A DNA stretch of 64,000 nucleotides from a virus. The stretch's first letter is position 1, and each line of letters opens with the position of its first letter. Positions 5,530 through 56,847 of this stretch are shown in pieces. The notes under the pieces are model-generated. The model ran no database searches. It saw only the letters and a list, made by a program, of their open reading frames with translations, and had not been told where the DNA came from. The position numbers and the translations under genes were made by a program. The DNA is taken from positions 1 through 64,000 of IMG/VR virus record IMGVR_UViG_3300038406_000196; one strand, written 5' to 3'.

Positions 5530-5686
5530 CGGTAGCCTCCGTGGTCGCACCGCATGCACAGCTGTGCACGGCGTGGTCGCCATCGCCCTTCCGGCACGGA
5601 TGGCACCAGTGCCTCAGAGTGTGCACCGGACAGCCGCCGCCCCAGCGGTAGTCACGGAACGTCTCACGCACCCGGTCAGGCTGCAT
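5516..5686 (-). CDS. small Cys/His-rich protein (array unit)
   Basis: starts at ATGCAGCCTGA junction with GGAGG RBS; 56 aa. Confidence 0.55.
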   Translation of the reverse strand: MQPDRVRETFRDYRWGGGCPVHTLRHWCHPCRKGDGDHAVHSCACGATTEATDGPA

Positions 5687-5945
5687 TATGTGACACCTCC
5701 CGAGCGGGCCATCGAACGCGACACCCCGGCCGACCGCAGCGCAGTCCCGGCGGCACCTCATGCGCAGCCCATACCGACGCTTCATCCAACGGCATGCCGT
5801 TGCAGGCCGCGTACATGAACCTGGACCCGCTGTCCGCGATCTCGACGTGTGCCATGTGCAGCAGCTTCAGCGAGCGTACGTTCGGGCGGTCGTACCAGGA
5901 TGCGTCTCGTAGCGCAGCGAATGCCTGCGGGTCAGGCTGCACCAC
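5676..5945 (-). CDS. small hypothetical protein (array unit)
   Basis: starts GTGGTGCAGCCTGA after GGAGGAG; ends HNAA*. Confidence 0.6.
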   Translation of the reverse strand: MVQPDPQAFAALRDASWYDRPNVRSLKLLHMAHVEIADSGSRFMYAACNGMPLDEASVWAAHEVPPGLRCGRPGCRVRWPAREVSHNAA

Positions 5946-6210
5946 GGCGGTCTCCTCCCAGCCGGTCCCTGGCCAACGTCGGCCACCGGCGGATCATCAT
6001 CGGGATCACCGGCACCGACAGATGCCCGGCGACCAGCAGCAGCAGCCTCAAGGAGACGATCACTGCGGCCAGCCCCGCCCACCACGGCATCCCGAGGCCG
6101 GCGAGCCACCAGACAAGCGGAACCATCACGGCGAAGATCAGGGCACTCGCAGCGACGACGTACACGGCGATGGCCCGCTTCGGCGGCATCCCGTTCCACT
6201 CAGGCTCCAT
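5932..6210 (-). CDS. small 2-TM membrane protein (array unit)
   Basis: starts ATGGAGCCTGA; two hydrophobic stretches. Confidence 0.6.
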   Translation of the reverse strand: MEPEWNGMPPKRAIAVYVVAASALIFAVMVPLVWWLAGLGMPWWAGLAAVIVSLRLLLLVAGHLSVPVIPMMIRRWPTLARDRLGGDRRGAA

Positions 6211-6451
6211 GACGGCCACCTCCCCGCAGCGGCTTCGTGATCCACAACAGCAGCGGATCGGCCGCCTCCCCACCGGCCACCAGCAAGGCGACGGCGACAC
6301 CAGCCTGGATTCCTAGGGCCAGCCCACCACCCAGCCCGGCCAGCAGATGCCCCACCAGCAGCACGGTGCCGACCATGAACACACCGGCGAACAGGCAGTA
6401 GACGGCCAAGGCGGGCAGGGGCGGGTCGGGGGTTGTCTGGTCAGGCTCCAT
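6200..6451 (-). CDS. small 2-TM membrane protein (array unit)
   Basis: starts ATGGAGCCTGA; hydrophobic; ends RHGA*. Confidence 0.6.
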   Translation of the reverse strand: MEPDQTTPDPPLPALAVYCLFAGVFMVGTVLLVGHLLAGLGGGLALGIQAGVAVALLVAGGEAADPLLLWITKPLRGGGRHGA

Positions 6452-6680
6452 GACGGCCTCGCTCCCGCCGGATCAGCCACAGACCGAGCAGCACCCCGAA
6501 GGCCACCGCAGCCGTCACAGCCGCACCAGCCTGGGTGAGCCCATTCCACGGCGAGCCGACCCGGCCGTCCAGCCACACCCTGCCACCGAGCACCACTGCG
6601 GCCACGATCACGCAGGCCGAGACCACCCCAGCGGCGGTCAGGGCTCGGACGGGGAGGGGACGGTGAGAGTCGGATCGCAT
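6441..6680 (-). CDS. small 2-TM membrane protein
   Basis: TGATG coupling; two hydrophobic stretches; ends RHGA*. Confidence 0.55.
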   Translation of the reverse strand: MRSDSHRPLPVRALTAAGVVSACVIVAAVVLGGRVWLDGRVGSPWNGLTQAGAAVTAAVAFGVLLGLWLIRRERGRHGA

Positions 6681-6934
6681 CAGTCACTCACTCCACAGCT
6701 ACACGGCTCGTCAGGGCTTGCACACCAGTAGGCATGCGGGTCTGGCGGCTCCGGCGTTGGTTCGGACGGGCAGTAGCCGCCGGGCGCGTGTCCGCCACGG
6801 GCGAGGAACACCGCCCGCCCGACGCCGGTCAGTCCGTCCCGGTCGGCGTGGGCTTCCAGCTGCTCGCCGAGATGCTGGAGCAGCGGCGCGAACGCCTCCG
6901 GGCTACAGCAGGTGCGGGTCTGGTCAGGCTGCAT
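6680..6934 (-). CDS. small Cys-rich hypothetical protein (array unit)
   Basis: starts ATGCAGCCTGA. Confidence 0.5.
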   Translation of the reverse strand: MQPDQTRTCCSPEAFAPLLQHLGEQLEAHADRDGLTGVGRAVFLARGGHAPGGYCPSEPTPEPPDPHAYWCASPDEPCSCGVSD

Positions 6935-7181
6935 GGCGTCCCCCAACAGAACGGGTCGGATCAGGCCAGCGCCGGAGCATCCAACGCACCGACACCATGG
7001 AGCCGACCTTGCCCGCAAGGCTCGCGGCGACCATCATTGCCACCACCACCGCCAGCAGCGGAAGCCCCAGCCAGGTCAACGCCCAGTAGACCGCGCCAAC
7101 GGCGGCGAGGATCGCGACGGCCACTACGACGATGCAGGCGAGTACCGCCAGCTTAGGTGGGCCAGACCGGTCAGGCTGCAT
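6924..7181 (-). CDS. small 2-TM membrane protein (array unit)
   Basis: starts ATGCAGCCTGA after GGAGG; hydrophobic; ends RHAA*. Confidence 0.6.
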   Translation of the reverse strand: MQPDRSGPPKLAVLACIVVVAVAILAAVGAVYWALTWLGLPLLAVVVAMMVAASLAGKVGSMVSVRWMLRRWPDPTRSVGGRHAA

Positions 7182-7548
7182 GCGACGCCTCCGAGTCCTC
7201 GGCTGGCCGCAGGTCGGCCAGCGGGCATCCGAACTGCCCCCACGCCCGCAGGTCCACCATCGCCCACCCGTCCTCGATCGACACGATCGGACCAGGCTCG
7301 GCGTAGATCTGGACCCCCAGCCCGTGACCGGGGTGGCCGGGCTTGATCCGGTTCGGCACATACACCCGCGTGCCGACAGTCAGCGTCTCCACGGCCCATC
7401 GGGCGATGCCGTCGGCAGCACCAAGCTCGGTCTCGTCGGCGCGTCCCTGGCGGCGGAGCTTGGCCGGGTCGGCGGTGCCATACCGGTCGATCAGGGTGTC
7501 GCGGGCCACCTCGAAGGCGTCCTTCTTGCGCGGCTGGTCAGGCTGCAT
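7171..7548 (-). CDS. hypothetical protein with possible SH3-like C-terminus (array unit)
   Basis: starts ATGCAGCCTGA; ends SHAA*. Confidence 0.6.
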   Translation of the reverse strand: MQPDQPRKKDAFEVARDTLIDRYGTADPAKLRRQGRADETELGAADGIARWAVETLTVGTRVYVPNRIKPGHPGHGLGVQIYAEPGPIVSIEDGWAMVDLRAWGQFGCPLADLRPAEDSEASHAA

Positions 7549-7852
7549 GGTTGCCACCCTCGAGTCGGCGGATGTAGCCGACCGACTCGAGCTCGAGCAG
7601 CGCGTCGCGGACTTCCTCGAGCGACTCGGCGGCTGGCGACTGCGCCACAAGCGCCACGAGAGCTTCTGCGTTTACCGCTCTCGGCTCGGTGAGCAGGTCC
7701 TGCATGATGCCCAGCGCGGTAAACGTCAGACGTGGATCTCGAGCCACCTCAAGAAACGGCGGCGGGTCCGGCACCAACTCAAAGGTCTGGTCATCGGCCG
7801 CGTACCTGGCGCCGTCCTCCGAGTCCCGCGGTGATCTTGGCTCAGGCTGCAT
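7538..7852 (-). CDS. winged-helix-like protein coupled to recombinase
   Basis: DPRLTFTALGI...VRDALLELESVGYIRR resembles a wHTH; starts within the recombinase stop junction. Confidence 0.6.
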   Translation of the reverse strand: MQPEPRSPRDSEDGARYAADDQTFELVPDPPPFLEVARDPRLTFTALGIMQDLLTEPRAVNAEALVALVAQSPAAESLEEVRDALLELESVGYIRRLEGGNHAA

Positions 7853-8924
7853 GGTTCCCATCCTCCCGTACCTCCTCGAGCAGAGATGCGATCCGGTGCG
7901 CCGGATGGCGAGCCGGGTTGTCGCTGCGGCGGTCGTAGCCTCGAGTCGTCACCGGCATGGCGTGACCCATCGCATCCTGGACGTCCGACAGCGGCACACC
8001 GGCCTCGAGGGACTGCGACGCGAAGGTGCGGCGGAGATCGTGTGGCATCACCCCGTCGGGGATGCCCGCTCGAGCGGTGATGCGCCGGATCAGCCGGTAG
8101 ACGTAGTGCCGGTCCAGCCGGCCGCCGTTGCGGGTGACGAACAGGGGGCGGCGGGGTCTCGAGCCTGGCGAGGTTGCGGGTAGCCGCTCGAGCGGCGGCC
8201 GGGCGGCCCGGTAGCCGGCGACCCTCGAGGCCACCTTCGGGGGGAACGGAACCCACCGGTGCTTGCCGCCCTTGCCCTCGAGGTTGGCACCCGGACCGTG
8301 CATGCCGGCGGTCAGGTCCTCGAGGTCCAGCCCGACGATCTCCGACTCCCGCAGCCCGCAGATGAGGGCGATGGCGATCAGCGCGCTCGAGCGGGGACCG
8401 TCCCGGTCGGCGACGGCAAGGGCGGCGGTGGCCTGCTCGAGCGCGAGGGCGGTGCCGAACGTGCCCGGCTTGCGGCGCTTGGGTTTCTTGCGGGGGTCCA
8501 TCCGGGTGATCGGGTTGTCGTCGGCGGCTAGGGCACGCTGGCGGACCAGCCAGGCGTACCAGCTCGAGACCACGGCCAGGCGGCGTGCTCGAGTGCCTTC
8601 GGCTTGGGTGTCGGCGAGTGCGGCGAGCCACAGTTCCACGTCGGCGGCTTCGCAGGCGAGCGGGTTGACTCGAGACCGGTAGCACCACCACAGGTAGGCA
8701 TCAAGGTTGTGGATCTTTTCGGGTTTGGGGTGGATGCATTGGCCGATGGGGTAGCCGCAGCCGTACAGGTCGACCCGGTAGGCCGCTCGAGTGTTGGCCC
8801 GCGGGTAGGTGGTGGCGAAGGCATCGGCCAGCTCGAGCAGCCGGCCGAAGTGGTGGTTGCTGGAGGCCAGGTCAGGCAGATTCACGGATACACCATAACG
8901 GTTGTTATGGGCGGTAGTGGTCAC
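7842..8924 (-). CDS. tyrosine recombinase (XerC/D-like)
   Basis: catalytic set GLRESE (R), GKGGK (K), PHDLRRT (HxxR), MGHA (H), TTRGY (Y); SAM-like N-terminus NTRAAYRVDL; exact start uncertain. Confidence 0.92.
   Translation of the reverse strand: MTTTAHNNRYGVSVNLPDLASSNHHFGRLLELADAFATTYPRANTRAAYRVDLYGCGYPIGQCIHPKPEKIHNLDAYLWWCYRSRVNPLACEAADVELWLAALADTQAEGTRARRLAVVSSWYAWLVRQRALAADDNPITRMDPRKKPKRRKPGTFGTALALEQATAALAVADRDGPRSSALIAIALICGLRESEIVGLDLEDLTAGMHGPGANLEGKGGKHRWVPFPPKVASRVAGYRAARPPLERLPATSPGSRPRRPLFVTRNGGRLDRHYVYRLIRRITARAGIPDGVMPHDLRRTFASQSLEAGVPLSDVQDAMGHAMPVTTRGYDRRSDNPARHPAHRIASLLEEVREDGNHAA
8888..8915. other. dif-like recombinase core site
   Basis: CCATAA-CGGTTG-TTATGG, same CATAA-N6-TTATG architecture as dif. 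Confidence 0.5.
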
Positions 8925-8987
8925 GACGCACCTCGAGGTGATGAGAACTGCGATTCTCGCGTATTACACATGGTCGATGGATGGGCG

Positions 8988-9010
8988 GCCGATAATGTAG
9001 CGCTATCGGC
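8988..9010. other. second dif-like/operator inverted repeat
   Basis: GCCGATAA-TGTAGCG-CTATCGGC. Confidence 0.5.
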
Positions 9011-9019
9011 TGTGTCACG

Positions 9020-10072
9020 CTAGATCTCACGACGGTTGCCCTCGCTGCGTAGACGCTGTTCCCAGAGCAGGTCTGCGGCGATCGGACTGATGCTCGTCCC
9101 GCCGCCCGCCAGGTCACCACCGAGGCATGCCCGGTCAGTCTGGCGGTACCCGCAGTCGATTGTCGGGCGAGCGTACGCACCCTCGTTGCCGGCGAGATCC
9201 ACCCGGTGCCAGCACGGCGCCACCTGCCGGTACCCAGCGGGGCCGTGGATGCCGGTACAGAACGGTCCGGCGGTGCAGTCGGTACGCTGCTCGGCGGGCA
9301 TGCCCCGCTGTTCGTGGATGAACCGGATTCCTGGGCAGGACGCCAGGCGTACAACGTCCGGGTTGTCGGCCAGCCGGCCCTTCCGCTCGTACTCCTCCGC
9401 GGCTCCCCAGCAAGCCGCCCGGCCAGCATGGAAGGTTGGGCCTGGGGCGCCGGGCACGAACCGGGACGGCTCCGGGAAGGTCACCGACCGCTGCCGGGTG
9501 GTGATCGGCTCCAGGCAGTGGGCGCACACTCCGGGCTGCGTGGTGGCTATGAGCCGGTCCATCCTCCGCGACTGGTGTGCCGCGAGGGTGCTGCGGTCCA
9601 TCTCCTGGCAAGGCCAGATGTGGCCATGGCAGGAGCACACCTTGTACGGCTCGCTGAGCACGACGAAGGGTGTGCCGACCAGCGGCCGGCTGCGGAAGTG
9701 CACCGTTCTGCTGCCATCATGCAGCCGCTGCGACGGCTCGCCTTCCTTGAGGATCATCGGGCCGCTCTCATGGCGAAGAACCGTGGTTCTCGGCCGGCCG
9801 ACCATCCACGCCCGCGGTCGGGCTGCCTCCCTGAGCCCTGACATGTACTCGTCCAGTCGGGCCCGTTCCTCATCACTGAGATCGATCTCCGGGACGGGCT
9901 TCGCTTCGGCCACCCTCCAGGCGCCGTAACGCCAGGCGACCAAGTCGCCCTCCTCCACGAGGGTTCCCCGCAGCCCGTCACGCAGGTTGTCGTATGTGGG
10001 CCGCCAGCGGTCAGGGTCCAACGCCCCGTTGTGGTACAGGCTCGGCAATGGCTCTCCCCTGTCAGTACCCAC
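9020..10072 (-). CDS. hypothetical Cys-rich phage protein
   Basis: 350-aa ORF with GGAGG RBS and overlap with upstream gene. Confidence 0.7.
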   Translation of the reverse strand: MGTDRGEPLPSLYHNGALDPDRWRPTYDNLRDGLRGTLVEEGDLVAWRYGAWRVAEAKPVPEIDLSDEERARLDEYMSGLREAARPRAWMVGRPRTTVLRHESGPMILKEGEPSQRLHDGSRTVHFRSRPLVGTPFVVLSEPYKVCSCHGHIWPCQEMDRSTLAAHQSRRMDRLIATTQPGVCAHCLEPITTRQRSVTFPEPSRFVPGAPGPTFHAGRAACWGAAEEYERKGRLADNPDVVRLASCPGIRFIHEQRGMPAEQRTDCTAGPFCTGIHGPAGYRQVAPCWHRVDLAGNEGAYARPTIDCGYRQTDRACLGGDLAGGGTSISPIAADLLWEQRLRSEGNRREI

Positions 10073-19623: not shown

Positions 19624-20138
19624 GGCTTCATCACCCGGCCGAAGTGACCAGCGGTCAGCGACTCGACGCACCGCAGCCGGTGATGCCACGCCGGCACCAG
19701 CTCGTGGCGACGTAGCAGGCCGGCCAGCGTCTCCGCGTCGAACGACGGGACCGCACCAACCAGGTAGGCGCCGTGGGTCATCCGGGCCACCTCCGGCGCC
19801 GCGAGCCGTGGCGGCAGGTACCCGCCCACCTGAGTGTCGCTATACGCCGGTGGCAGCCTGCGACGGTTGGACAGGTACTGGCCGTACGGATGCCGTTCGT
19901 AGAACCGGCCCACCTCCAACGCCTTCGGCTCGGCGGCACTCAGGTCCACGTCCACGAAGAACGACACCTCGGTCTCCTCGCCGCCCTCCTCGCGCCGAAT
20001 CATGGCGACCTCGTGCGCCAGCCGGCCGGGGCTCAAGCCAGTCGTTTCTGTGTCAATGAAGCACAAGAGCATCGATGGCCCTTTCTTTACGGTTTCGGGT
20101 GGGGGGCAGGGTGGTCCCTGCCCGTAGACCTCGGTCAT
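19620..20138 (-). CDS. DEDD 3'-5' exonuclease-like protein
   Basis: FIDTETTGL ExoI motif, GAVPSFD ExoII; short, ExoIII not evident. Confidence 0.75.
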   Translation of the reverse strand: MTEVYGQGPPCPPPETVKKGPSMLLCFIDTETTGLSPGRLAHEVAMIRREEGGEETEVSFFVDVDLSAAEPKALEVGRFYERHPYGQYLSNRRRLPPAYSDTQVGGYLPPRLAAPEVARMTHGAYLVGAVPSFDAETLAGLLRRHELVPAWHHRLRCVESLTAGHFGRVMKP

Positions 20139-20355
20139 GCCGCCCTCGCAACCTGATGTGGGTGACGGCCGCCCGCACGCCATCCACGGCAGGCAGAGCA
20201 CCACCGTGCGCTGGCCAACCATTGGAGGTGACCGAGTGGGACGTTTCCGGGGCGAGCCACCGGTGGCCAGCCGTCAACCTCGTCACCCATTGCGGTACGG
20301 CAGGCGATGCAGTCAACGACCGAGCAGCTACCAGGCTGGGAAGCGACCACGTCAG

Positions 20356-21684
20356 TCACCCACCCAGCGCCATCGAAGCGAACCGGCCGAGGTGCAGCTG
20401 GCTGGCGGCCACAACGGTCACCTGGCGGCCACCCCGGTTCTTCGCGATGATGAGGTCCGCCTCCCCCCTCCGGGAGGAGTCCTTGTCGTAGTAGTCCTCT
20501 CGGTGGATCAGCACGATGATGTTGGCGCTGTTCTCGATGTCGCCCGACTCGCGCAGGTCCGCCATGCTGGGCCGCTTGTCCACTCGGTGCTCCGGGCCGC
20601 GGTTCAGCTGCGACAAGGCCACCACCGGGCAGCGCAGCTCAGCGGCCAGCTTCTTCAGCCCGCGCGCCAACTCGCCAACGCCCACCTGGCGGGTCTCCCG
20701 GCCCGACGGCAGGTCAACCAGCTGCATGTAGTCAACGACCACCAGCCCGAGCCCTTGGCGCCGCTTGAGCTGGCGGCAGGCCAGCCGGATTCCGGCAAGG
20801 CTGATGCTGCCGTTGTCGGAAACGTACAGCGGTACGTCGGCGGTATTGCCGATGAACCTGGCGACGCGGGTCCATTCCTCGTCGCTGAGCTTGCCCTCAT
20901 TCATGGCGGTGATGTTGATACCCAGCTCGGCGGCGACAACGGCGTTGAAGATCTCCTGCTCGCTCATTTCCAGCGAGAACAGGGCAGTTGTCAGTTTCTG
21001 GCCGAACGCGGCTGCTCGGGCGAAGTTGCGGGCCAGCACAGACTTTCCCATCGACGTACGCCCAGCGACGACGACCAGCTGGCCGGGACGGAGGCCACCG
21101 CTCAGCTCAAGGTCCAGGTCCAGTAGGCCGGTTGAGACTGGGGCAAGCTCTCCCTCGGCCTTCTCGGCTGCCTCGACACCGAGTAGCCCGTGGGTGGCGA
21201 CCTCGCTCCACGGCACCAGCTCGTCGTCGCTATGCGTTCCGGCGTCGAGCGCGTCCAGGTCGTTGCGGATCCGCTCGACTGCCTCGGCCGGGTCTTCGAG
21301 TGCAAGGCTGTAGGCGTAGGTTTGCGCTCGGCTGCCGGCCTCCTGCAACCCGCGGGCAACCGCGAATGTGCGGAGCTTGCTGGCGTGCCAGACGGCCTGC
21401 GCGGCTACCGGCACCTGCTGCACGACCTCCAGCAGGTATCCGATCCCGCCAGCCTTGACGATGTCGCCGGAGGCTGTGAGCCGGACGTTGATAGCCTCCG
21501 GGCTGACCGGGTCGCCTGCCTCGTGCGCTCCCACGATCGCGGAGAAGATCATCCGATTTCGCGCCTCGTAGAACGCACCCGGTGCGACAAGGCGCATCAC
21601 GTCATCGATGGTGCCGGGGTCGGTCATCATCGCCCCGAGGACAACCCGCTCAAGGTCTACGTCGTGAGGCTGCGGCTGGCTCAT
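20356..21684 (-). CDS. dnaB: replicative DNA helicase
   Basis: AGRTSMGKS Walker A, SLEM, VVVDYMQL, LSQLNR, DLRESGDIE, IAKNRGG. Confidence 0.97.
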   Translation of the reverse strand: MSQPQPHDVDLERVVLGAMMTDPGTIDDVMRLVAPGAFYEARNRMIFSAIVGAHEAGDPVSPEAINVRLTASGDIVKAGGIGYLLEVVQQVPVAAQAVWHASKLRTFAVARGLQEAGSRAQTYAYSLALEDPAEAVERIRNDLDALDAGTHSDDELVPWSEVATHGLLGVEAAEKAEGELAPVSTGLLDLDLELSGGLRPGQLVVVAGRTSMGKSVLARNFARAAAFGQKLTTALFSLEMSEQEIFNAVVAAELGINITAMNEGKLSDEEWTRVARFIGNTADVPLYVSDNGSISLAGIRLACRQLKRRQGLGLVVVDYMQLVDLPSGRETRQVGVGELARGLKKLAAELRCPVVALSQLNRGPEHRVDKRPSMADLRESGDIENSANIIVLIHREDYYDKDSSRRGEADLIIAKNRGGRQVTVVAASQLHLGRFASMALGG

Positions 21685-22346
21685 CGGCCACCTCCCGTGA
21701 TGCGGCGGCGGTCGGCACCGCGGAGATGGACTCGCATACCGTCAAAGATCCGGGACACCACCCGTGGGCTGACCGCCTCAGCAAGGTCCTCCGGGCTCAG
21801 GTTTGTGGTGTAGATCGACGGCAGCGGCGTGGACCATCGGTGGTCGACCAGCCGGTACAGTCCGTCGGCTGTCCAGTCGGTCTGCCGGCCGGCGCCGATG
21901 TCGTCTAGCAGCAGCAAGTCCACAGTCTCGTACCGCTCCAATACGTGCTCGTGCGTGGTGTCGGCCTTGGGTCGGAGCTGGTGGTTCAGATGCGGGTGCG
22001 TGACTACTCGGAACCGCACTGGCTGCCGGCGCTGCGCGGCGTCCAGGGCGACAGCACGGAGTGCCGCGAAGGCCAGGTGCGTCTTGCCGGTCCCCGGCTC
22101 GCCAGCGAGCAGAAGGGACGGGGCTGCACGCCAGTCGGCGACGAACCGGGCCACCCACTCCGCGACAACCTGATGATCCACGATCGCGTTGGCGAACCTG
22201 CCGGGAACCGTGTCCCGCAGCGCGGCCTCTGTCTGCTCCAGCAGCCAGGCGTCCGGGTCGAACGGCTCCGGGTCTGACGCTGGCGCGTCTGGGTCGATTC
22301 CCCGACGGCGCAGGGTCTCAATGGCGATCTCATGCAGCTGCCGCAT
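21681..22346 (-). CDS. DnaC/IstB-like helicase loader ATPase
   Basis: GEPGTGKTHLA, LLLDDIG, TTNL, SRI, GADRR. Confidence 0.9.
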   Translation of the reverse strand: MRQLHEIAIETLRRRGIDPDAPASDPEPFDPDAWLLEQTEAALRDTVPGRFANAIVDHQVVAEWVARFVADWRAAPSLLLAGEPGTGKTHLAFAALRAVALDAAQRRQPVRFRVVTHPHLNHQLRPKADTTHEHVLERYETVDLLLLDDIGAGRQTDWTADGLYRLVDHRWSTPLPSIYTTNLSPEDLAEAVSPRVVSRIFDGMRVHLRGADRRRITGGGR

Positions 22347-23310
22347 GGCCATCCTCCCAGCCGGATAGGCTCTCGGCGCTGGACACTCTGCGCCCACCGT
22401 TTGCTGGCTTGTCGGGCCTGCGCTTCACCGGCTCGTCACCCCACCGCTCCTGGTTCAGCCACGTTGTCGGATGCGGGATGTACTCGGCTTCCATCCCGCG
22501 GCAGGCGTCGGCGAAGACGCGGGCACCGGCAAGGATCTTGTCGACGGTGACGCCCTTCCTCGCCAGCGCCCTGGCGTAGGCGGCCTTGGCTGCGCCTCGG
22601 GCCTCCTTTCGTGGGTAGGTGGACCAGAACTCATCCCACGAAGGAGGGTCGTCGCCGGAGGCGGCGGAGCGCGTACGCGCGTTCCCTCTCCTTCTCCTAT
22701 TCCCCTCCTTCTCCCTCTCCCCCTCAGGAGTGAGGGGCTCATGAGGGCCTCCGGAGTCATTCGTGAGGTCGTCATGAATCGCTGTGGCCTGGACGGATGA
22801 CCCGTTCTCCGTAGTGTCCACAGTCCCTTGCCCCCCCGCCGTCCCGGGATTTTCACGAGCGGCTCGTGAAGCCTTCACGACATCCTCATGAGGGCTCACG
22901 CCGTTCCGCGGAGAAGCCTCATGAGCGTCGCCGTAGGGCTCCCCCAGGTCATGCCACGGACACGGAGGGATCTCCGACTCGCGCGGGTGCTGTGGCTTCT
23001 GGTGATCCTTCCAGTCCGGGGCGTGCAGATACCGGCGCCCGCCACTCCGGTATCTGCACACCGGCCCGGTCAACTCGTCAGAGTCGGTCGGCTGCATCAT
23101 CATCGTTAGCCACTCGTCGACCGTTGATCGGGTGATGTCGTCGTCCAGCGGGAAACAGTCCGCATTGATGAGCCGGCTGTCGTCCACGCCGCGGCCCTCG
23201 TCGTCGAGGTATCCCCACAGCAGCACCCAGAAGTAGCGGACCTCGCGAGGCCACTCAGCGACCGTCAGCGACGTACGCAGTTGCGGCTTCACGGACCTGA
23301 TCCGGGCCAT
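22330..23310 (-). CDS. phage replication initiator
   Basis: MARIRSVKP N-terminus; FWSTYPRK...YIPHPTTWLNQERW; upstream of loader and helicase. Confidence 0.85.
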   Translation of the reverse strand: MARIRSVKPQLRTSLTVAEWPREVRYFWVLLWGYLDDEGRGVDDSRLINADCFPLDDDITRSTVDEWLTMMMQPTDSDELTGPVCRYRSGGRRYLHAPDWKDHQKPQHPRESEIPPCPWHDLGEPYGDAHEASPRNGVSPHEDVVKASRAARENPGTAGGQGTVDTTENGSSVQATAIHDDLTNDSGGPHEPLTPEGEREKEGNRRRRGNARTRSAASGDDPPSWDEFWSTYPRKEARGAAKAAYARALARKGVTVDKILAGARVFADACRGMEAEYIPHPTTWLNQERWGDEPVKRRPDKPANGGRRVSSAESLSGWEDGHAAAA

Positions 23311-32748: not shown

Positions 32749-33055
32749 CGGTGCCACCGCCAGCGACGGGCACACCCAACGCTCCGGCGATCAACGCCAG
32801 CTCCCGGCACGGGTACGCCACCGTCGTCCCGCTGTTGTCCTCGTCCAGCTGTGAACAGCCGGCACACCGGTACACCGGGTGGTCGTTGCCGAGGTCCACG
32901 CAGATCGTGTGGTAGGCGGCGGGCATCGTGTCGCCCTGGTGCCACGGCTCGGGCTGGTGCAGGTCCAGCACCGCCCGCACTGCGGCCACCGCATCGTGGG
33001 CCGGGTCGGACTCGTCCAGCAGGGCCACAATCCGGGTACGTAGGTCAGTCGCCAT
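32741..33055 (-). CDS. hypothetical phage protein
   Basis: AVLDLHQP...CAGC...YPC motif common in actinophages. Confidence 0.65.
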   Translation of the reverse strand: MATDLRTRIVALLDESDPAHDAVAAVRAVLDLHQPEPWHQGDTMPAAYHTICVDLGNDHPVYRCAGCSQLDEDNSGTTVAYPCRELALIAGALGVPVAGGGTDG

Positions 33056-34502
33056 GGCCATCCTCCTCCGCTAGCCGGTCTTCCGCCCGTGCGATTTCCT
33101 CCGGGGAGTGCTGGACTCCGCGGGTACGGCAGTAGCCGCCCGGCTCAATCAGGTGCTCCCGTTCGATGAAACGTGACGTTTTGTGCCGCTCATCGAGCCA
33201 CCGCCTCGCGGTGATGGCGTTGACCGCTTGCGCGGCCTTCCCGTGGCGGTGCGACTGCCGGACGTACGAGCACGCCGGTCTAACATCGCTTCCATCAGGC
33301 AGCTCCCGGCGCAACTCGCCGGTGTCGGCCGCCAGGGCGGCCAGGTTTCGTGCGGCGTTCTCATCCCTGTCAAGGACGAGGCCACAGGACATGCACACGT
33401 ACATCCGCTCGGCCAGGGACAGCTTGGCTTTCGCTGTGCCGCATCCCGAGCAGGTCTTCGAGCTGGCGAACCAGCGGTCCGCCACGACCAGGCGCGCTCC
33501 GGCGCGCTCAGTCTTGTAGGTGAGCTGACGGCGGATCTCCGCCCAGTTCGCACCGGCGATGTGCCGGGCCAGGCGCCGGTTTCGCAGCATCCCGGCAACG
33601 TGCAGGTCTTCGATCACGATCGTGTCGAAGTCCCGGACGAGGCGCGCCGTCAGTTGGTGGGTGTCGTTGCGGCGCAAGTTCGCCACCCGCGTGTGGATGG
33701 CGGCGGCACGTCTGCGAGCCTTGCGCCAGCGGTTCGACGGCTCAACACGGGTGCGCCGGTCCGGGCCGCGGCGGCGGGCGCACGTGCGCTGGATGCGGCG
33801 CAGGTTGCACAGCTCACGGTCCAGGCGCCGCGTGTTGGGCACGTGCTCGCCGGTGGACAGGGTGGCGAGTTCTTTGATGCCCAGGTCGACGCCGACGACC
33901 CGGCCGCCATCCCGGGGTGTCGGGGCCGGCTCGTTGACCTCGACGGAGAACGCCACGTGCCACCGGCCGCGCTGGTGGGACAGGGTGGCCGAGCGGATGC
34001 GGGCAGCCCCCGACTCGACGCGGCGGGCCAGCTTCCGCGTGGACTCGTGCGTGCGGATGGTCCCGATGACGGGCAGCTTCACGTGGCGGCGGTCAGCGCC
34101 GAGCCCGAACGCGCCAGTGGTGAACCGGCAGGTCGGACGGGCTCGATGCTTCGACTTGAACCGGGGCATCCGGGCACGGCCGGCTTTACGGTTGCGCAGC
34201 GCGGTGGCGAGGTTCGCGCACCCGGTGGCGTATGCCTCTTTGCTGTTCTCCGCCCACCACGGCGCGGCCTCGGTCTTGGCGGCGTTCCACGCCTTCCGCA
34301 GGCTGTAGGCGGAGGTGTTGATCCACGGGGTGAGCTGGTCGCCGGTCAGGCCGTAGGTCTGCTCGGCGACGCGCTGCGCCCAGTTCGCCTTCACCTGGGC
34401 GAGGCACCAGTTGTAGGCGACCCGCGCCGCGCCGCAATGCGACCGCATCACCTCTGCCTGCGGTCCGGTCGGGTCGAGAGCGAACAGGTAGGCGCGGATC
34501 AC
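33045..34502 (-). CDS. tnpB: IS607-type TnpB RNA-guided endonuclease (no TnpA nearby)
   Basis: N-terminal HTH RAYLFALDPT, RuvC VGVDLG / IEDL / DRDENAARNL, zinc finger CSGC..CMSC. Confidence 0.93.
   Translation of the reverse strand: MIRAYLFALDPTGPQAEVMRSHCGAARVAYNWCLAQVKANWAQRVAEQTYGLTGDQLTPWINTSAYSLRKAWNAAKTEAAPWWAENSKEAYATGCANLATALRNRKAGRARMPRFKSKHRARPTCRFTTGAFGLGADRRHVKLPVIGTIRTHESTRKLARRVESGAARIRSATLSHQRGRWHVAFSVEVNEPAPTPRDGGRVVGVDLGIKELATLSTGEHVPNTRRLDRELCNLRRIQRTCARRRGPDRRTRVEPSNRWRKARRRAAAIHTRVANLRRNDTHQLTARLVRDFDTIVIEDLHVAGMLRNRRLARHIAGANWAEIRRQLTYKTERAGARLVVADRWFASSKTCSGCGTAKAKLSLAERMYVCMSCGLVLDRDENAARNLAALAADTGELRRELPDGSDVRPACSYVRQSHRHGKAAQAVNAITARRWLDERHKTSRFIEREHLIEPGGYCRTRGVQHSPEEIARAEDRLAEEDGHGD
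33140..33330 (-). ncRNA. putative omegaRNA scaffold plus guide overlapping the tnpB 3' end
   Basis: expected position for TnpB; IS607-like right end CACGTTTCATCGAACGG ending near 33159; boundaries approximate. Confidence 0.45.
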
Positions 34503-34810
34503 GACTCCCCCACCGGGGTCAGCCCGGCGTCGGCCTTCGCCTGCGCGACCGCCTCGTCCACCTCGGCCTGCGTGTGCAGCCGGATCGCTTCCGACATGGG
34601 GCACTGGTTCGCCTCGGCGATCTCGCACGACACCGCCCACGTGGCCGAGGCGCCGAGCGTGTTGGGTGTGTGCCACCGCTTCTCCGGATCACCCAGCCAT
34701 GCGGCGAGCTGGTCGTCCCGCAGGATCACTACCGGAAGCTCGCTGTCGTCTCGGGCCGGCCACAGCAGGACGGAATTATCCGGAGGTTCGGGCATCAGGT
34801 GCTCACCCAC
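34499..34810 (-). CDS. hypothetical protein directly upstream of tnpB
   Basis: GTGA coupling with tnpB; no transposase motifs. Confidence 0.6.
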   Translation of the reverse strand: MGEHLMPEPPDNSVLLWPARDDSELPVVILRDDQLAAWLGDPEKRWHTPNTLGASATWAVSCEIAEANQCPMSEAIRLHTQAEVDEAVAQAKADAGLTPVGES

Positions 34811-43734: not shown

Positions 43735-45414
43735 TCAGGCACGGGCCACCTCCTCTCCAGTGATTGCCTCGACCACCGCGGCGATCAGGTCCCGGGCGGC
43801 CGGCGGCGTGACGGCGTTGCCGAGCTGCCTCACCCGCTCGCGCTTGTTGCCGAGCACCACGTACGCCGGCTGAAACGCCATGGCGGCCTGGATCTCGTGA
43901 GGCTCCAGCATCCGGAAGGTGCAGTCGTCCACCCTCACCTCCGGGCCGACCAGCGCCTGCCGGTCGACGGTGGTCACCGTCCCGACCGGCTCATCCACGC
44001 GCCGCGCGGTGCTGGTGCCGTAGTAGGGCACCAGTAGGTTGTCCCAGCGGATCAGCGACTGCACCTGCTGGGCCAGGATCGTCCGCAGTGGCTCGGTGAC
44101 CGGGGTGGACATCTGGCCCTGGTCGCCGCGGGCGGTCATGTTGCGCATCACGAGCGCGTGGTGGTTGCCGGCTGCCGCTACGGTCGGAGCTGGCGCCTCC
44201 TCGGCCAGCCGAGCTACGCCGTTGTTGCGCAGGGGCACCACGAGCGCATCCTGTAGCCGGGCGGTCTGGGTACGGGCCGGCTCGGCGGCCGGGCGAGCAG
44301 CGATGCCCTCGCGGCCCTCCACCGGCACAACGAGGGCGTCAGTGTCGCGGGTGAGCCTGGCCGTCATAGGCTCGCTGACCAGCCGGGCGGACGCCTCGTG
44401 GTTGGGCCCGCCGACGGCGAGCATCATCGGCGGGCAGGCGACCGCCTTGCTCGGGGTGGTGTGCAGCGTCTTGAACGGCTGTTCGTCCGCCGGCCACGCC
44501 CGCACGTAGTCCGATCCGGGACGCTCGTACGTGTTGCCGGCGGCCTCCAGGTGGATCGGCCGGGCGTACCGCTTCAGCCCGGCTTCGATCCGGGCGACGG
44601 TCTTCGGCGCCAACGGCCTCGGGCGGTCACCGATCCGCTCGCCCGGCAGGTCCCAGTCGATCGCCACCGCGGCCGGTAGGACGCCGGGGAACACCTCGAC
44701 GTGCTGGCAAGCCTGGTTCGGGCACCGGTAGAGGTATTGCTGCCGGTAGCGGCCCCGTGGCCGGTCGGGACGCTTCCACGCCTGCACCGCCCGCACCTGC
44801 TCGTCGCACTCCGGGCACCATGCCGCTGGCCGGGTCCACCGGTCCAGGTCCGGCCGACGACCGCCCCGGCGCCACGCCACGACGTACAGCCGGTCACGGG
44901 ACTGCGGTGCGGGTGCGCCGACCTGCTGCGCGAACATGCTGTTCAGGTACACCACCGCGTGGTCGTAGCCGAGGTTGTCGAGCCCCATCACCCACGCCGG
45001 CCACAGCACCCAGTCCCGCACGTCGACCACGTTCTCGACGACGACCGCCCGGTACCGGTGCACCTCGGCGAACCGGAGGACATCGAACATGGTCGCCCGG
45101 GACCGCTCCGCAGCCTCGTCGGGCAGGGTCTCGCCGAACAGGTCGGGCTGGGCGCCCTCCTTGCGTCGGCCACGGGCCTGGCTGTGGTTTGTGCACTCCG
45201 GGCTGGCCCAGAGGATGTCGGTGCGCGGGTACCGCCGGGGGTCGACCTGGGAAATGTCGGCCGTGTCGTGGTCGGCGTGCGGGAGGTTCCGGTTGTGGGT
45301 CTCGACCGCCAGCTTCCAGTGGTTCGCGGCCATCCGAATGCGCACCCCGGGCACAAGCTCGGCACCCGAGCTCGAACCCCCGGCCCCACAAAACAGGTCA
45401 GTTACCGTCAGCAT
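43735..45414 (-). CDS. DNA (cytosine-5) methyltransferase
   Basis: DLFCGAGG, SPECTNHS, VENV, QSRDRLY, RQLGNAV. Confidence 0.95.
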   Translation of the reverse strand: MLTVTDLFCGAGGSSSGAELVPGVRIRMAANHWKLAVETHNRNLPHADHDTADISQVDPRRYPRTDILWASPECTNHSQARGRRKEGAQPDLFGETLPDEAAERSRATMFDVLRFAEVHRYRAVVVENVVDVRDWVLWPAWVMGLDNLGYDHAVVYLNSMFAQQVGAPAPQSRDRLYVVAWRRGGRRPDLDRWTRPAAWCPECDEQVRAVQAWKRPDRPRGRYRQQYLYRCPNQACQHVEVFPGVLPAAVAIDWDLPGERIGDRPRPLAPKTVARIEAGLKRYARPIHLEAAGNTYERPGSDYVRAWPADEQPFKTLHTTPSKAVACPPMMLAVGGPNHEASARLVSEPMTARLTRDTDALVVPVEGREGIAARPAAEPARTQTARLQDALVVPLRNNGVARLAEEAPAPTVAAAGNHHALVMRNMTARGDQGQMSTPVTEPLRTILAQQVQSLIRWDNLLVPYYGTSTARRVDEPVGTVTTVDRQALVGPEVRVDDCTFRMLEPHEIQAAMAFQPAYVVLGNKRERVRQLGNAVTPPAARDLIAAVVEAITGEEVARA

Positions 45415-45687
45415 TGGAGCCGCCCTCCAGCGCCCGCAGGGCACGCTCGTTTGCGACCGCCGGCAGCAGTGTCAGGTCGGCGAGGATTGCCCGTACCGCG
45501 TCCAGCCGGGCGTCGGCGGTGGCGTGTGCAGCCGTAGCCTTCAACGCGGCGCCCCGGGCCTTGCGTAGCTCCCGCTCCAGCCGTTCGATCTCGGCGGTGA
45601 GTCCGCCGCCGCGCTCAGCGGCGGCGTCCAAGTCGGCGCGCAGGTGCAACACCACCGCCTCATGGCCGCAGGGCTGCCACGGCCACC

Positions 45688-49745: not shown

Positions 49746-49930
49746 CGCGTCCGCCCTCCCCTCGGCGCAGCCAACGCCGCCCGACGGGCAGCCGACGATG
49801 CGGCCAGGGCACGCCCACGCCACCGACGGCGAGCGTGGGCCATCTCGCACGCGGCCACGGCAGCGTCGTGGCGCATCAGCCGCACGGTCGGGGACAGGTC
49901 ACGGGCGGTCATGCCGGCCACCGCCCGGAC

Positions 49931-55401: not shown

Positions 55402-56847
55402 TTACCGCCCGCGCCACTCGATGGCGATCCGGTTGTCCACGGTGCCGTCGTAGGGTGGCTTGGCCCGGTGGACCACCACCTGCTTGACGAACATCCCCAC
55501 GAACTCCCGCCGCTCGCCGAGGTCCATCGCCGAGACCACCCGCGCGTCTGTGAGCACAGCCGGGTCGACATCCCCGACCGGCTGCGGTACCTCCGCCAGC
55601 TCACCCCGGAGCCGGGCGTCGTCGGCGGCCAGGCTGTCGCGGGCGGTACGCCACTCGTCGTCGGTCAGGTCCCGGCGCCCCCACGCACCGGCCAGGGCTG
55701 TCCGGCGCCGCTCGATCTCCGCCAGGTCGACGTTGATCTGGTCGCGCTGCTCCGCGTGGTCGTCGGAGGTGAACTGGGCCAGGAACTGCGGGTTCGCCAG
55801 CGCGGCCATCAGCACGGCGAGGACGTGCCGTTCCGCCGGGCCGGCCATGATGCCGACGCAGCCGCGACCGCCGTACTTCACCCCGCAGACGTAGTACGGC
55901 ACCTTCGACCCGTCGCGGGCGGTCGGCCGCAGCGTGCCGACCATCCGGGCGCCACACACCCCGCATACCGAGAGCCCGCCGGTGAGGAGGTGCCGGCGGG
56001 CACTGCGCCGGCCGGGCGCCGGCACCGGGTAGGCGCCGGCGAGACCGTTGACCACCCGGGCAGCGCCGAGCTTGGCGCAGACCGCCTTCCACGTCGCCTC
56101 GTCCAAGATCCCGGACCAGTTGCCGGCTCCGACCACTGCGCCCTGATGCAGCCGCAGCCCGGCCACCGCCGGAGTGGTGACCATGTCCTTGATCGAGGTG
56201 CTGGTGAGTGCGCCGCCCCGGCTGCCGGTGACGCCGCGGCGGGCCAGGTCCCGCGCAACGTTGGTCAGCGACCAGCCGGCGAGCACGCGGTCGGCGACCT
56301 CGCAGACCACGGCGGCCTGCTCAGGGTCGTGCGCGTAGGTCTTGACGCCGTCGACCACCACTCGGCGGAACCCGTACGGGCAGGTGGGCGGCGGGATGCC
56401 GGCGGCGGCGTTGCCGTCGAGCTTGTCGTGGACGCGCCTTTTCAGCTTCCGCACCTCCGCGGCCGCGATCACGGCCTTGATTCCGGCTACCTCGTCGACG
56501 ACCCGCACGATCCCGTCACGGTTGGTGTGGACCTCCTCGATGCCAGCGGCGTCCAGCTCGGCGGCGAGCGCGAACCAGCCGACCTCGGTACGCTCCAAGC
56601 GGGTCTGCTCAACGGTCCACAGCTGGGCGACGTGGCCGGCCCGGATCTGCTCGCGCAGCGCGTCGAACTGCGGCCGGGGTCCTCCGTTGGCGGCGGACAG
56701 TCCGGGGTCGGCGAACACGCGCACGGGCAGCCCTGGCCACCTGGCGGCGGCGTACTCGCGCCCCCATCGCTGCTGGCTGTCGACGCCCTCGTAGTTGCCG
56801 TCGGGCCGTGGGGACAGCCGGCAGTAGAGTGCTACGCACCTGGTCAT
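55402..56847 (-). CDS. large serine recombinase (integrase)
   Basis: YCRLS catalytic Ser, DPGLSA..RPQF, TRLER, PYGF, CGVCG..YYVC zinc ribbon, coiled coil. Confidence 0.95.
   Translation of the reverse strand: MTRCVALYCRLSPRPDGNYEGVDSQQRWGREYAAARWPGLPVRVFADPGLSAANGGPRPQFDALREQIRAGHVAQLWTVEQTRLERTEVGWFALAAELDAAGIEEVHTNRDGIVRVVDEVAGIKAVIAAAEVRKLKRRVHDKLDGNAAAGIPPPTCPYGFRRVVVDGVKTYAHDPEQAAVVCEVADRVLAGWSLTNVARDLARRGVTGSRGGALTSTSIKDMVTTPAVAGLRLHQGAVVGAGNWSGILDEATWKAVCAKLGAARVVNGLAGAYPVPAPGRRSARRHLLTGGLSVCGVCGARMVGTLRPTARDGSKVPYYVCGVKYGGRGCVGIMAGPAERHVLAVLMAALANPQFLAQFTSDDHAEQRDQINVDLAEIERRRTALAGAWGRRDLTDDEWRTARDSLAADDARLRGELAEVPQPVGDVDPAVLTDARVVSAMDLGERREFVGMFVKQVVVHRAKPPYDGTVDNRIAIEWRGR

What the first reader, a model, noticed from the sequence alone, without database searches (positions are those of the whole stretch)
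7559..8937. CTCGAG island: 22 XhoI-type palindromes in the recombinase module, none seen in the other 62.6 kb
Seen: 22 CTCGAG copies in 1,379 bp, covering the recombinase gene, the base pairs just upstream and the coupled wHTH gene, and stopping sharply at the 7538 junction. At about 70% GC, roughly 0.5 would be expected here and roughly 20 in the rest of the window. My by-eye scan found zero outside, although CTCGAC, CTCGAT, CTCGAA and GTCGAG are abundant. The sites fall in all three reading frames (LE; ARA/TRG/SRV; RSS/ASR/VSS), so this is a DNA-level signal, not a peptide motif. About half extend to longer palindromes, for example GCCGCTCGAGCGGC and CACCTCGAGGTG. Established: CTCGAG is the XhoI/PaeR7I restriction site, and phages commonly purge such sites. 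Inference: the phage avoids the site genome-wide but this module hoards it. Possible roles are (a) a binding or loading array for the recombinase or the wHTH protein, (b) a methylation or restriction sensor that switches or destroys the module depending on host R-M status, (c) a decoy for a restriction enzyme, or (d) a break-prone segment that promotes its own recombinational spread or cassette capture.
Basis: partly seen in the sequence, partly recalled or inferred. Interest (0 to 1): 0.92.

Follow-up and report, generated by a model that had tools for sequence, protein, structure and literature searches.

The report
Restriction-site hoard in phage recombinase gene
An uncultured actinomycete phage has removed the restriction-enzyme word CTCGAG from its whole 119-kb genome except for one recombinase gene and its small neighbour, where 22 copies were written in on purpose, and no known system explains why.

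Summary
All 22 CTCGAG copies lie at 7559-8937, with none elsewhere in the window or in the whole 119,206-bp virus record (about 47 expected). In the Xer-like tyrosine recombinase gene, 16 of 20 codon-compatible positions carry the site (7 of 7 Leu-Glu pairs). In the other called genes the figure is 0 of 426, and synonymous resampling gives 1.65. Amino acids were changed to make sites: Leu-Glu pairs number 6-7 in this protein and its 86% relatives, against 0-1 in six relatives at 43-55% identity.

The recombinase gene is native by codon usage. Candidate host genomes hold 0.05-0.64 sites per kb, against 16 per kb here. Only the bare hexamer is kept. I found no flank preference by eye (only a weak 8-bp palindrome excess), no regular spacing, no phasing and no unusual RNA folding energy.

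The function is unproven. My best guess (0.3) is a module that only a CTCGAG-specific R-M system can cut or mark. Earlier notes of this scan report the same thing in at least two other actinophage genomes. I did not test those notes. My searches found no published account.

The parts
7559..8937 (.). Array of 22 exact CTCGAG hexamers (16 per kb), the only copies in the 119-kb genome
   Evidence: No periodicity or helical phasing. 11 of 22 extend to palindromes of 8 bp or more.
7842..8924 (-). Xer-like tyrosine recombinase gene (360 aa, GTG start) carrying 16 of the sites
   Evidence: PF00589 6.8e-23 and phrog_1 6.6e-41. R192, K218, H295, R298, H321 and Y330 are invariant in the 8-sequence alignment. 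16 of 20 permitted positions are realised. Codon usage is native. The N-terminus is shared with the 86% relative P0002.
7538..7861 (-). Small translationally coupled gene (107 aa, possibly winged helix) carrying 5 sites; an optional cassette
   Evidence: No Pfam family. No homologue but itself. Atlas structure rows with MarR/FUR-type winged helices at TM 0.56-0.66. No Foldseek PDB match at E <= 0.001. Lowest codon-usage score of all scored genes. Skipped in an X2 contig that joins 7543 to 7859.
8929..8940 (-). 12-bp palindrome CACCTCGAGGTG in the 5' leader, holding the outermost site 7 nt before the recombinase start; it overlaps a GAGGTG Shine-Dalgarno-like word
   Evidence: The Shine-Dalgarno reading is my inference from the sequence.
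8988..9010 (.). Inverted repeat GCCGATA-N9-TATCGGC between the recombinase gene and the upstream gene; a candidate recombination or operator site
   Evidence: No match with up to 3 mismatches in four Micromonosporaceae-type genomes. Function untested.
7538..7548 (-). Stop/start junction motif (..HAA* over ATG CAG CCT GA) where the array ends; the last site is 10 nt upstream of the next gene's ATG
   Evidence: 8 copies of TCAGGCTGCAT with at most 1 mismatch at 5676-7852.
5676..7548 (-). Downstream run of small genes in the same operon style, with no CTCGAG (context)
   Evidence: no PHROG family for seven of them.

Best explanation
The array is a positively selected DNA-level feature. Exact CTCGAG hexamers were written into almost every position that the protein sequence of a native Xer-like recombinase gene allows, and amino acids were changed to allow more. 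This happened in a phage, probably of Micromonospora, that has otherwise erased the word, as its likely host genus largely has. My committed mechanism is that the array makes the head of this operon the only part of the genome that a CTCGAG-specific R-M system can act on. In a cell with the enzyme, unmethylated incoming DNA would be cut only here, and many times. That would remove the recombinase (and the small gene) and leave TCGA cohesive ends that can be rejoined. The outermost sites sit 7 nt before the recombinase start and 10 nt before the next gene's ATG, so the downstream genes would land behind the same leader. DNA methylated in a previous host of the same R-M type would keep the module. 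The host's R-M type would thus decide whether the recombinase module survives. Shown: the array, its saturation, the purge elsewhere, and native codon usage of the recombinase gene. Inferred: who reads it, the cutting, the rejoining and the benefit.
For: Exactness and exclusivity: 22 of 22 copies in 1.4 kb of a 119-kb genome. Selection: 16 of 20 permitted positions are realised, and 16 of 18 once two mutually exclusive ones are set aside. The background is 0 of 426 and resampling gives 1.65. Protein reshaping: LE pairs number 7 here and 6 in P0002, P0042 and P0043. They number 0-1 in six relatives at 43-55% identity, and at most 5 in the 37 further homologues that were scored. Turnover of single sites: two LE positions read LK and IE in P0002, and site 8786 is lost in 97-99% identical contigs. 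This fits 'number matters, not place'. Only the hexamer is kept: flanks show no preference by eye, with no spacing or helical phase, and neighbours one letter away are at normal frequency. This is typical of Type IIP R-M recognition. R-M pressure is real in the likely host clade. The XhoI endonuclease family PF04555 is found in 27 of 401 sampled Micromonosporaceae genomes (one of them, G142, is unpublished). Six Micromonospora genomes hold only 0.05-0.09 CTCGAG per kb, against 0.55-0.64 in Actinoplanes and Dactylosporangium genomes. The neighbouring gene's relatives sit in 5 of 275 Micromonospora genomes, in 20-kb stretches with no CTCGAG at all. AGGCCT (0 against 18.9 expected), TTCGAA (0 against 11.4) and GAGCTC (4 against 36.9) are purged too. 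Geometry: the outermost sites bracket exactly the two genes.
Against: No cleavage, methylation or rejoining has been observed. No contig in the four laid runs joins one CTCGAG to another. The three joints seen are at other places, and two of them have short sides. A genome cut in two is normally lost, and having no sites at all would be safer, so a benefit has to be assumed. The phage has a serine integrase elsewhere that carries no sites, so losing this recombinase would not obviously change lysogeny. The host is inferred, not known. The phage encodes two DNA methyltransferases of unknown specificity, which could make the sites a methylation target and not a cutting target. No XhoI-family endonuclease is encoded by the phage.
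Confidence: 0.3

Rival explanations
1. Methylation-read switch. The sites are substrates of a CTCGAG methyltransferase, either the host's or one of the phage's two. Their methylation state (full, hemi or none) is then read to gate expression, recombination or DNA processing at this locus. This would resemble the Dam hexamers in the P1 pac site or the GATC clusters at oriC.
For: The phage encodes an N6/N4 methyltransferase (742-aa ORF at 47622-49850) and a C5 methyltransferase (43735-45444) of unknown specificity. Only the bare palindrome is kept. Dose-like build-up. P1 needs Dam methylation at pac for packaging (passage read in PMC12707154).
Against: If the phage methylated CTCGAG itself, the purge elsewhere would be unnecessary. 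There is no helical phasing or pairing of sites as in SeqA-type reading. 21 of the 22 sites lie in coding sequence and not in a promoter. No reader protein has been identified.
Confidence: 0.15
2. Dedicated non-R-M reader. A phage-encoded or host protein that recognises CTCGAG coats or cuts this stretch. It might silence or block the recombinase operon, or make a programmed break for recombination, replication or packaging. The absence of the word elsewhere would then partly serve specificity.
For: The word is unique to one address in the genome. The adjacent small gene may be a winged-helix protein. 11 of 22 sites are 8-bp or longer palindromes (p 0.026).
Against: Six bases without flanks is short for a regulator. 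There is no spacing rule. The small gene is an orphan and is absent from a variant that keeps the recombinase gene. Other restriction-type palindromes are purged as well, so ordinary R-M avoidance explains the absence elsewhere.
Confidence: 0.2
3. Sponge. In a host whose chromosome has only about 365-703 CTCGAG sites, 22 sites per phage copy multiplied by replication would outnumber the host's sites. They would then titrate the host's CTCGAG methyltransferase or endonuclease.
For: Six Micromonospora genomes hold 365-703 sites each. Sites build up in a dose-like, position-free way.
Against: Unmethylated sites would be cut, breaking the phage genome. There are no other phage sites to protect. 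The copy number is assumed. It does not explain why a recombinase gene is the carrier, here and in the earlier notes.
Confidence: 0.08
4. RNA-level device. The self-complementary CUCGAG words fold or cross-link the mRNA to limit translation of the recombinase.
For: The 5'-leader site lies in a 12-nt palindrome that overlaps a Shine-Dalgarno-like GAGGTG.
Against: The minimum free energy of the recombinase mRNA (-487.3) is ordinary against 40 synonymous permutations (mean -483.7, sd 9.8, z -0.36). Any GC-rich palindrome would serve, so the choice of a purged restriction word is unexplained.
Confidence: 0.03
5. No function. The island is a recent import from a CTCGAG-rich donor, or a by-product of a mutational or repair bias.
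For: The small gene has the most atypical codon usage of the scored genes and is a presence/absence cassette.
Against: The recombinase gene's codon usage is at the 67th percentile of the genome once CTCGAG codons are masked. It also shares the operon's junction motif. No examined genome approaches 16 sites per kb. 240 loci of more distant relatives show no such hoard: at most 7 CTCGAG in any 1.5 kb, in CTCGAG-rich loci. A genome-wide bias cannot give 22 sites here and 0 elsewhere. Amino-acid changes created sites.
Confidence: 0.04

Closest known systems
Restriction-site (palindrome) avoidance in phage genomes (Rusinov et al. 2018, PMC6286503; abstract and 12 passages read)
   Same: Complete loss of an orthodox Type II site, and of other 6-bp palindromes, from a dsDNA phage genome.
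   Different: That paper contains neither 'clustered' nor 'local', and none of the passages I read mentions local enrichment. Here the purged word is packed at 16 per kb into one gene pair.
Dam-site cluster of the phage P1 pac site (passage in PMC12707154). That the hexamers lie inside the pacA gene, and that lox-cre lies near pac, is recalled and not read here.
   Same: Short palindromic methylatable words clustered inside a coding region of a phage that also carries a tyrosine recombinase and its own methyltransferase. The number of sites matters.
   Different: In P1 there are a few sites in a short stretch, read by terminase, and GATC is not purged elsewhere.
GATC clusters at oriC read by SeqA (recalled, no paper read)
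   Same: Local over-density of a short palindrome whose methylation state is read.
   Different: SeqA needs phased neighbouring sites. No phasing is seen here. This is not an origin as far as is known.
Binding-site arrays written into plasmid or phage genes, such as iterons in lambda O and TraB recognition repeats of Streptomyces plasmids (recalled, no paper read)
   Same: Many copies of a short word placed inside coding DNA.
   Different: Those words are 8-19 bp, directional and closely spaced. This one is a bare 6-bp palindrome with irregular spacing of 6-137 bp.
Earlier notes of this scan on other actinophage genomes (e1-6090211; e1-5985944 and e1-5985927)
   Same: As written there: CTCGAG is purged from a 76-kb and a 93.7-kb phage genome except for a Cre/Xer-like recombinase gene or cassette holding 15 and 13 copies.
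   Different: I could not see those sequences. By shared words their recombinases do not resemble this one. They are leads and not independent evidence.

Membership tests
Tyrosine recombinase (Phage_integrase, PF00589), Xer-like | Profile match above the curated cut-off | tested here: met
   PF00589 81.7 bits against a cut-off of 27.1; phrog_1 integrase 6.6e-41.
Tyrosine recombinase (Phage_integrase, PF00589), Xer-like | Catalytic R-K-H-R-H/W-Y residues present | tested here: met
   R192, K218, H295, R298, H321 and Y330 are among the invariant columns of alignment A1. Assigning them as the catalytic set rests on recalled knowledge of the family.
Phage restriction-site avoidance | Site count far below the compositional expectation | tested here: met
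   0 outside the island against about 47 expected in 119 kb.
Phage restriction-site avoidance | A cognate R-M system in the host | tested here: inconclusive
   PF04555 (XhoI) is in 27 of 401 Micromonosporaceae genomes, and the genus is depleted in CTCGAG. The phage's actual host is not known.
Methylation-gated site cluster (P1 pac or oriC/SeqA type) | A methyltransferase for the clustered word | not testable with these tools
   Two phage methyltransferases exist, but their specificity cannot be read from sequence here.
Methylation-gated site cluster (P1 pac or oriC/SeqA type) | Phased or paired spacing of sites | tested here: not met
   The Rayleigh scan over periods of 2-40 bp is no better than random placement (p 0.62), and the value at 10.5 bp is 0.08.
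Operator or iteron array of a sequence-specific DNA-binding protein | Conserved bases beyond a 6-bp core and a spacing rule | tested here: not met
   Flanks at -1 and +1 are mixed C, G, A and T by eye. There is only a weak excess of 8-bp palindromes (p 0.026). Spacings of 6-137 bp show no period.
Horizontally acquired island | Composition or codon usage unlike the rest of the genome | tested here: not met
   The recombinase gene is at the 45th percentile (67th with CTCGAG codons masked) of 92 genes. The small gene alone is an outlier. GC content is 0.688 in both 1-kb bins, like the neighbouring bins.
Horizontally acquired island | A donor with comparable site density | tested here: not met
   0.05-0.64 per kb in nine genomes of candidate host genera. 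No comparable hoard in 240 loci of relatives.

The most novel reading that the evidence does not exclude
Phages of actinomycetes use the host's own restriction enzyme as a programmed tool. They purge a restriction site everywhere except in one dispensable recombinase module, where they pack it densely. The host's R-M type then decides whether that module is kept (same-type host, methylated DNA) or cleanly cut out and the genome re-closed by cohesive ends (foreign-type host). This would be a kin- or host-typing switch written in restriction sites, recurring in several unrelated actinophage lineages.
Probability: 0.2. Interest if true: 0.9.

Novelty: categorically new. Interest (0 to 1): 0.82.

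Why it matters
Restriction sites in phage genomes are understood only as liabilities to be lost. Here one is kept and multiplied, at the cost of codon choice and even of amino-acid sequence, at a single address in a genome that has otherwise erased it. Notes of this scan report the same at recombinase genes of other actinophages. If the array is read by an R-M system, it would be the first case of a phage exploiting restriction or methylation as a signal or a tool instead of evading it. Rusinov et al. (PMC6286503, passage) found it hard to imagine how R-M systems could treat temperate and lytic phages differently, and this would bear on that question. The idea is directly testable by recoding the sites or by supplying an XhoI-type system in a laboratory actinomycete.

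Tried and rejected
DNA of the close relatives. I then looked for relatives' DNA in several other ways.
- The search for related loci in viral contigs, metagenome contigs and genome contigs.
- A search of 401 Micromonosporaceae genomes.
- Two further viral scans with P0050 and P0048.
None gave a relative above 51% identity. Whether the 86% relatives hoard CTCGAG therefore rests only on their protein sequence.

Hoards in more distant relatives. None was found in 240 loci. The palindrome clusters in L022 and L180 are CRISPR arrays.

Scans for other hoarders.
- A codon-specific motif gave 43 loci and no hoard.
The dense ones lie in CTCGAG-rich genomes or LE-rich proteins, and none matches this recombinase.
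- The same triple pattern hit 27 of 275 Micromonospora genomes. Each has at most 7 sites in 3 kb, and they are tandem repeats or host genes.
- Gordonia phage Shlim410, the best cultured-phage match at 29% identity, has no hoard and no purge.

LE excess among representatives. Of 149 proteins, 7 have 6 or more LE pairs. This protein has the lowest Poisson p (9.7e-4), but P0050, P0048 and P0073 are not significant after multiple testing, and their DNA was not found.

Other negative results.
- RNA structure: no signal.
- Periodicity: none.
- The inverted repeat upstream of the gene, tested as a host dif or att site: no match in four genomes.
- Promoter scan: nothing.
- The small protein: no homologue, and no significant PDB fold match.
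- RNA evidence: no RNA holder listed.
- Joints at 8114/8296 and 8207/8399 have short sides and do not fall on sites, so I did not use them.

Literature. Four searches and passages of two papers gave no account of local enrichment of a purged site. Supplementary files were not opened and could hold per-genome site maps.

Decoy reading: rejected on logic, because there are no other sites to protect.
Full report
**Observation**

A pattern search finds 22 exact CTCGAG copies in the window, all between 7559 and 8937 and none in the remaining 62.6 kb. Dinucleotide-preserving shuffles of the window give 27.3 +/- 5.1. The window is the first 64 kb of a 119,206-bp IMG/VR virus record, rated 100% complete by CheckV. 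The whole record has only these same 22 copies, against 46.9 expected from a maximal-order Markov estimate. Among all 5- to 8-mers, CTCGAG is the most clustered word in the genome. AGGCCT (0 against 18.9 expected), TTCGAA (0 against 11.4) and GAGCTC (4 against 36.9) are also purged. Words one letter away from CTCGAG are at 0.8-1.5 of expectation. Contigs of three other runs from three other coded studies carry pieces with no differences that cover 12 of the sites, so the array does not come from one assembly alone.

**What carries it**

The minus strand encodes a 360-aa tyrosine recombinase at 7842-8924 (PF00589 6.8e-23; phrog_1). The residues I take to be the catalytic set are invariant in an alignment with seven relatives. 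Its closest cellular relatives, at about 40-46% identity, are Xer-like proteins of Micromonosporaceae.

It is translationally coupled to a 107-aa gene at 7538-7861 through the motif CATGCAGCCTGA. The same motif joins a run of small downstream genes; there are 8 copies at 5676-7852.

The small gene has no homologue but itself. It resembles winged-helix folds only weakly and has the least typical codon usage of the scored genes. It is skipped, junction to junction, in a contig of run X2 that otherwise matches the recombinase gene's 3' part with 7 differences in 253 bases. It is therefore an optional cassette.

The phage also has a large serine recombinase at 55402-56847. The Xer-like enzyme therefore need not be the integrase.

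**Evidence for selection on the DNA word**

- Sites occur in all three frames, and those in frames 1 and 2 use codons that are rare here (ACT, TCT, CGA, AGA).
- Of the 20 places in the recombinase gene where the amino-acid sequence permits CTCGAG, 16 carry it, including 7 of 7 Leu-Glu pairs. Two of the four misses overlap realised sites and so are mutually exclusive with them.
- In the 124 crudely called genes outside the island region, 0 of 426 such places carry it.
- Resampling synonymous codons at the genome's usage gives 1.65 sites (max 7 in 5000). Shuffling the gene's own codons gives 2.27.
- The protein itself was reshaped. Leu-Glu pairs number 7 here and 6 in the 86% relatives P0002, P0042 and P0043 (about 1.5 expected). 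They number 0-1 in the six relatives at 43-55% identity. None of the 37 further homologues that were scored has more than 5. Ten of the 16 site positions are not site-compatible in any of the six relatives at 43-55% identity.
- Single sites turn over. Two LE positions read LK and IE in P0002. Site 8786 is lost in contigs of X2 and X5 that are 97-99% identical.
- Apart from a weak excess of 8-bp palindromes (11 of 22, p 0.026), nothing beyond the hexamer is kept. Flanks are mixed, spacings run from 6 to 137 bp without a period or helical phase, and there is no frame preference (7, 9 and 6).

**Not a foreign island**

GC content is like that of the neighbouring bins. The recombinase gene's codon usage lies at the 45th percentile of 92 genes, or the 67th with CTCGAG codons masked. 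It shares the operon's junction motif, and P0002 also ends in ..HAA.

Densities of CTCGAG in genomes of candidate host genera, against 16 per kb in the island:

| Genome | CTCGAG per kb |
|---|---|
| G001 (holds L082, titled Actinoplanes) | 0.64 |
| G003 (holds L089, titled Dactylosporangium) | 0.55 |
| G004 (holds L081, titled Planomonospora) | 0.23 |
| Six Micromonospora genomes (G002, G405, G413, G491, G519, G529) | 0.05-0.09 |
| This island | 16 |

None of 240 loci of more distant relatives shows a hoard of any palindrome at the recombinase gene.

**Likely host and R-M pressure**

The gene just upstream (9020-10072) has relatives at 42-66% identity named by their sources as Micromonospora proteins. 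It was found in 5 of 275 Micromonospora genomes. The five 20-kb stretches around it hold no CTCGAG and no copy of this recombinase.

The genus as a whole is about ten-fold poorer in CTCGAG than Actinoplanes or Dactylosporangium. The XhoI endonuclease family occurs in 27 of 401 sampled Micromonosporaceae genomes and in 0 of 14 control genomes (one of the 27, G142, is unpublished). The phage itself has no XhoI-family gene. It does encode an N6/N4 methyltransferase and a C5 methyltransferase of unknown specificity.

**How it may work**

The facts call for a reader of the bare hexamer, a benefit that grows with the number of sites and not with their place, and confinement to the head of one operon. 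That profile fits an R-M-type enzyme better than a regulator.

I commit, at 0.3, to the reading that the array makes this module the only part of the genome that a CTCGAG-specific R-M system can address. Unmethylated DNA entering a cell with the enzyme would be cut only here. The module would be shredded, and the TCGA ends could be rejoined. The outermost sites (7 nt before the recombinase start, 10 nt before the next ATG) would then place the downstream genes behind the same leader. All of this is inferred.

Against it: no site-to-site deletion was seen in the laid contigs, a benefit must be assumed, and a serine integrase remains.

The rivals are:
- a methylation-read switch of the P1-pac kind (0.15; passage in PMC12707154);
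- a dedicated non-R-M reader that coats or cuts the stretch (0.2);
- a sponge for the host's enzyme, given only 365-703 sites per host genome (0.08);
- an RNA device (0.03; mRNA folding energy is ordinary, z -0.36);
- no function (0.04).

**Novelty**

Four literature searches and passages of PMC6286503 and PMC12707154 describe avoidance of sites and methylation at pac sites. They do not describe local hoarding of a purged site.

This scan has noted the same thing before on other DNA. One case is a 76-kb phage with 15 copies in a Cre-hyp-HNH cassette. The other is a 93.7-kb phage with 13 copies in a Xer-like recombinase gene. I could not see or test those sequences, and they are not close to this recombinase by shared words.

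**Verdict**

It is a selected DNA-level signal in a native gene, unexplained by any system I could find in print, with a testable but unproven link to R-M.

Noticed in passing
window 7543-7859: A contig of run X2 joins 7543 to 7859 with 8 other letters between, skipping the whole 107-aa gene from junction motif to junction motif. Genes in this array appear to be gained or lost at the conserved stop/start junction.
   Followed up: partly
window 5676-7852: Eight copies of the junction word TCAGGCTGCAT (at most 1 mismatch; 0.8 expected) couple the recombinase gene and a run of small genes. Each gene ends ..H(A/G)A* and starts MQPD.., and several look like membrane proteins.
   Followed up: partly
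window 55402-56847 (-): A large serine recombinase (Resolvase, Recombinase and Zn_ribbon_recom domains) with no CTCGAG. It is probably the real integrase, which leaves the Xer-like enzyme's role open.
   Followed up: partly
window 33045-34676 (-): A transposase gene (phrog_506, 1.6e-92) inside the phage genome. It is also free of CTCGAG.
   Followed up: no
window 8988-9010: Inverted repeat GCCGATA-N9-TATCGGC just upstream of the recombinase gene. It may be a recombination or operator site. It was not found in four Micromonosporaceae-type genomes.
   Followed up: partly
G000 about 71,011-72,500 (beyond the window): A second motif array: CGGATA/TATCCG occurs 12 times in 1.5 kb (38 in the genome, p 1.9e-13). 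It lies beside a plasmid-type transfer module according to those notes.
   Followed up: no
G000 about 105,200-106,200 (beyond the window): Several 5- to 8-mers (ACCCAGG, CACACCGC, CGGCCGAC and others) are strongly clustered inside a 1221-aa ORF, which suggests a repeat protein.
   Followed up: no
G002, G405, G413, G491, G519, G529 (whole genomes): All six Micromonospora genomes counted hold only 365-703 CTCGAG sites (0.05-0.09 per kb). This is about ten-fold fewer than an Actinoplanes and a Dactylosporangium genome, so depletion of this word looks genus-wide.
   Followed up: partly
window 9020-10072 (-); L427-L431: The Cys/His-rich 350-aa protein upstream of the recombinase gene (phrog_26381, function unknown) has 100 or more relatives. 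They include 5 of 275 Micromonospora genomes, in CTCGAG-free 20-kb stretches that lack the recombinase.
   Followed up: partly
window 47622-49850 (-) and 48840-49619 (+): The N6/N4 methyltransferase ORF matches its profile in two separated parts. An opposite-strand 259-aa ORF inside it has only a weak zinc-finger hit. Earlier notes read this as an antisense nuclease insert.
   Followed up: partly
L022 10646-11311; L180 12147-12803: CRISPR-like arrays (repeats every 60-73 bp) lie close to tyrosine recombinase genes in two unrelated contigs.
   Followed up: no
L421 (MZ456038.1) 19950-22861: Gordonia phage Shlim410 carries two annotated tyrosine integrase genes 0.9 kb apart. The one related to this recombinase has no palindrome hoard.
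   Followed up: partly
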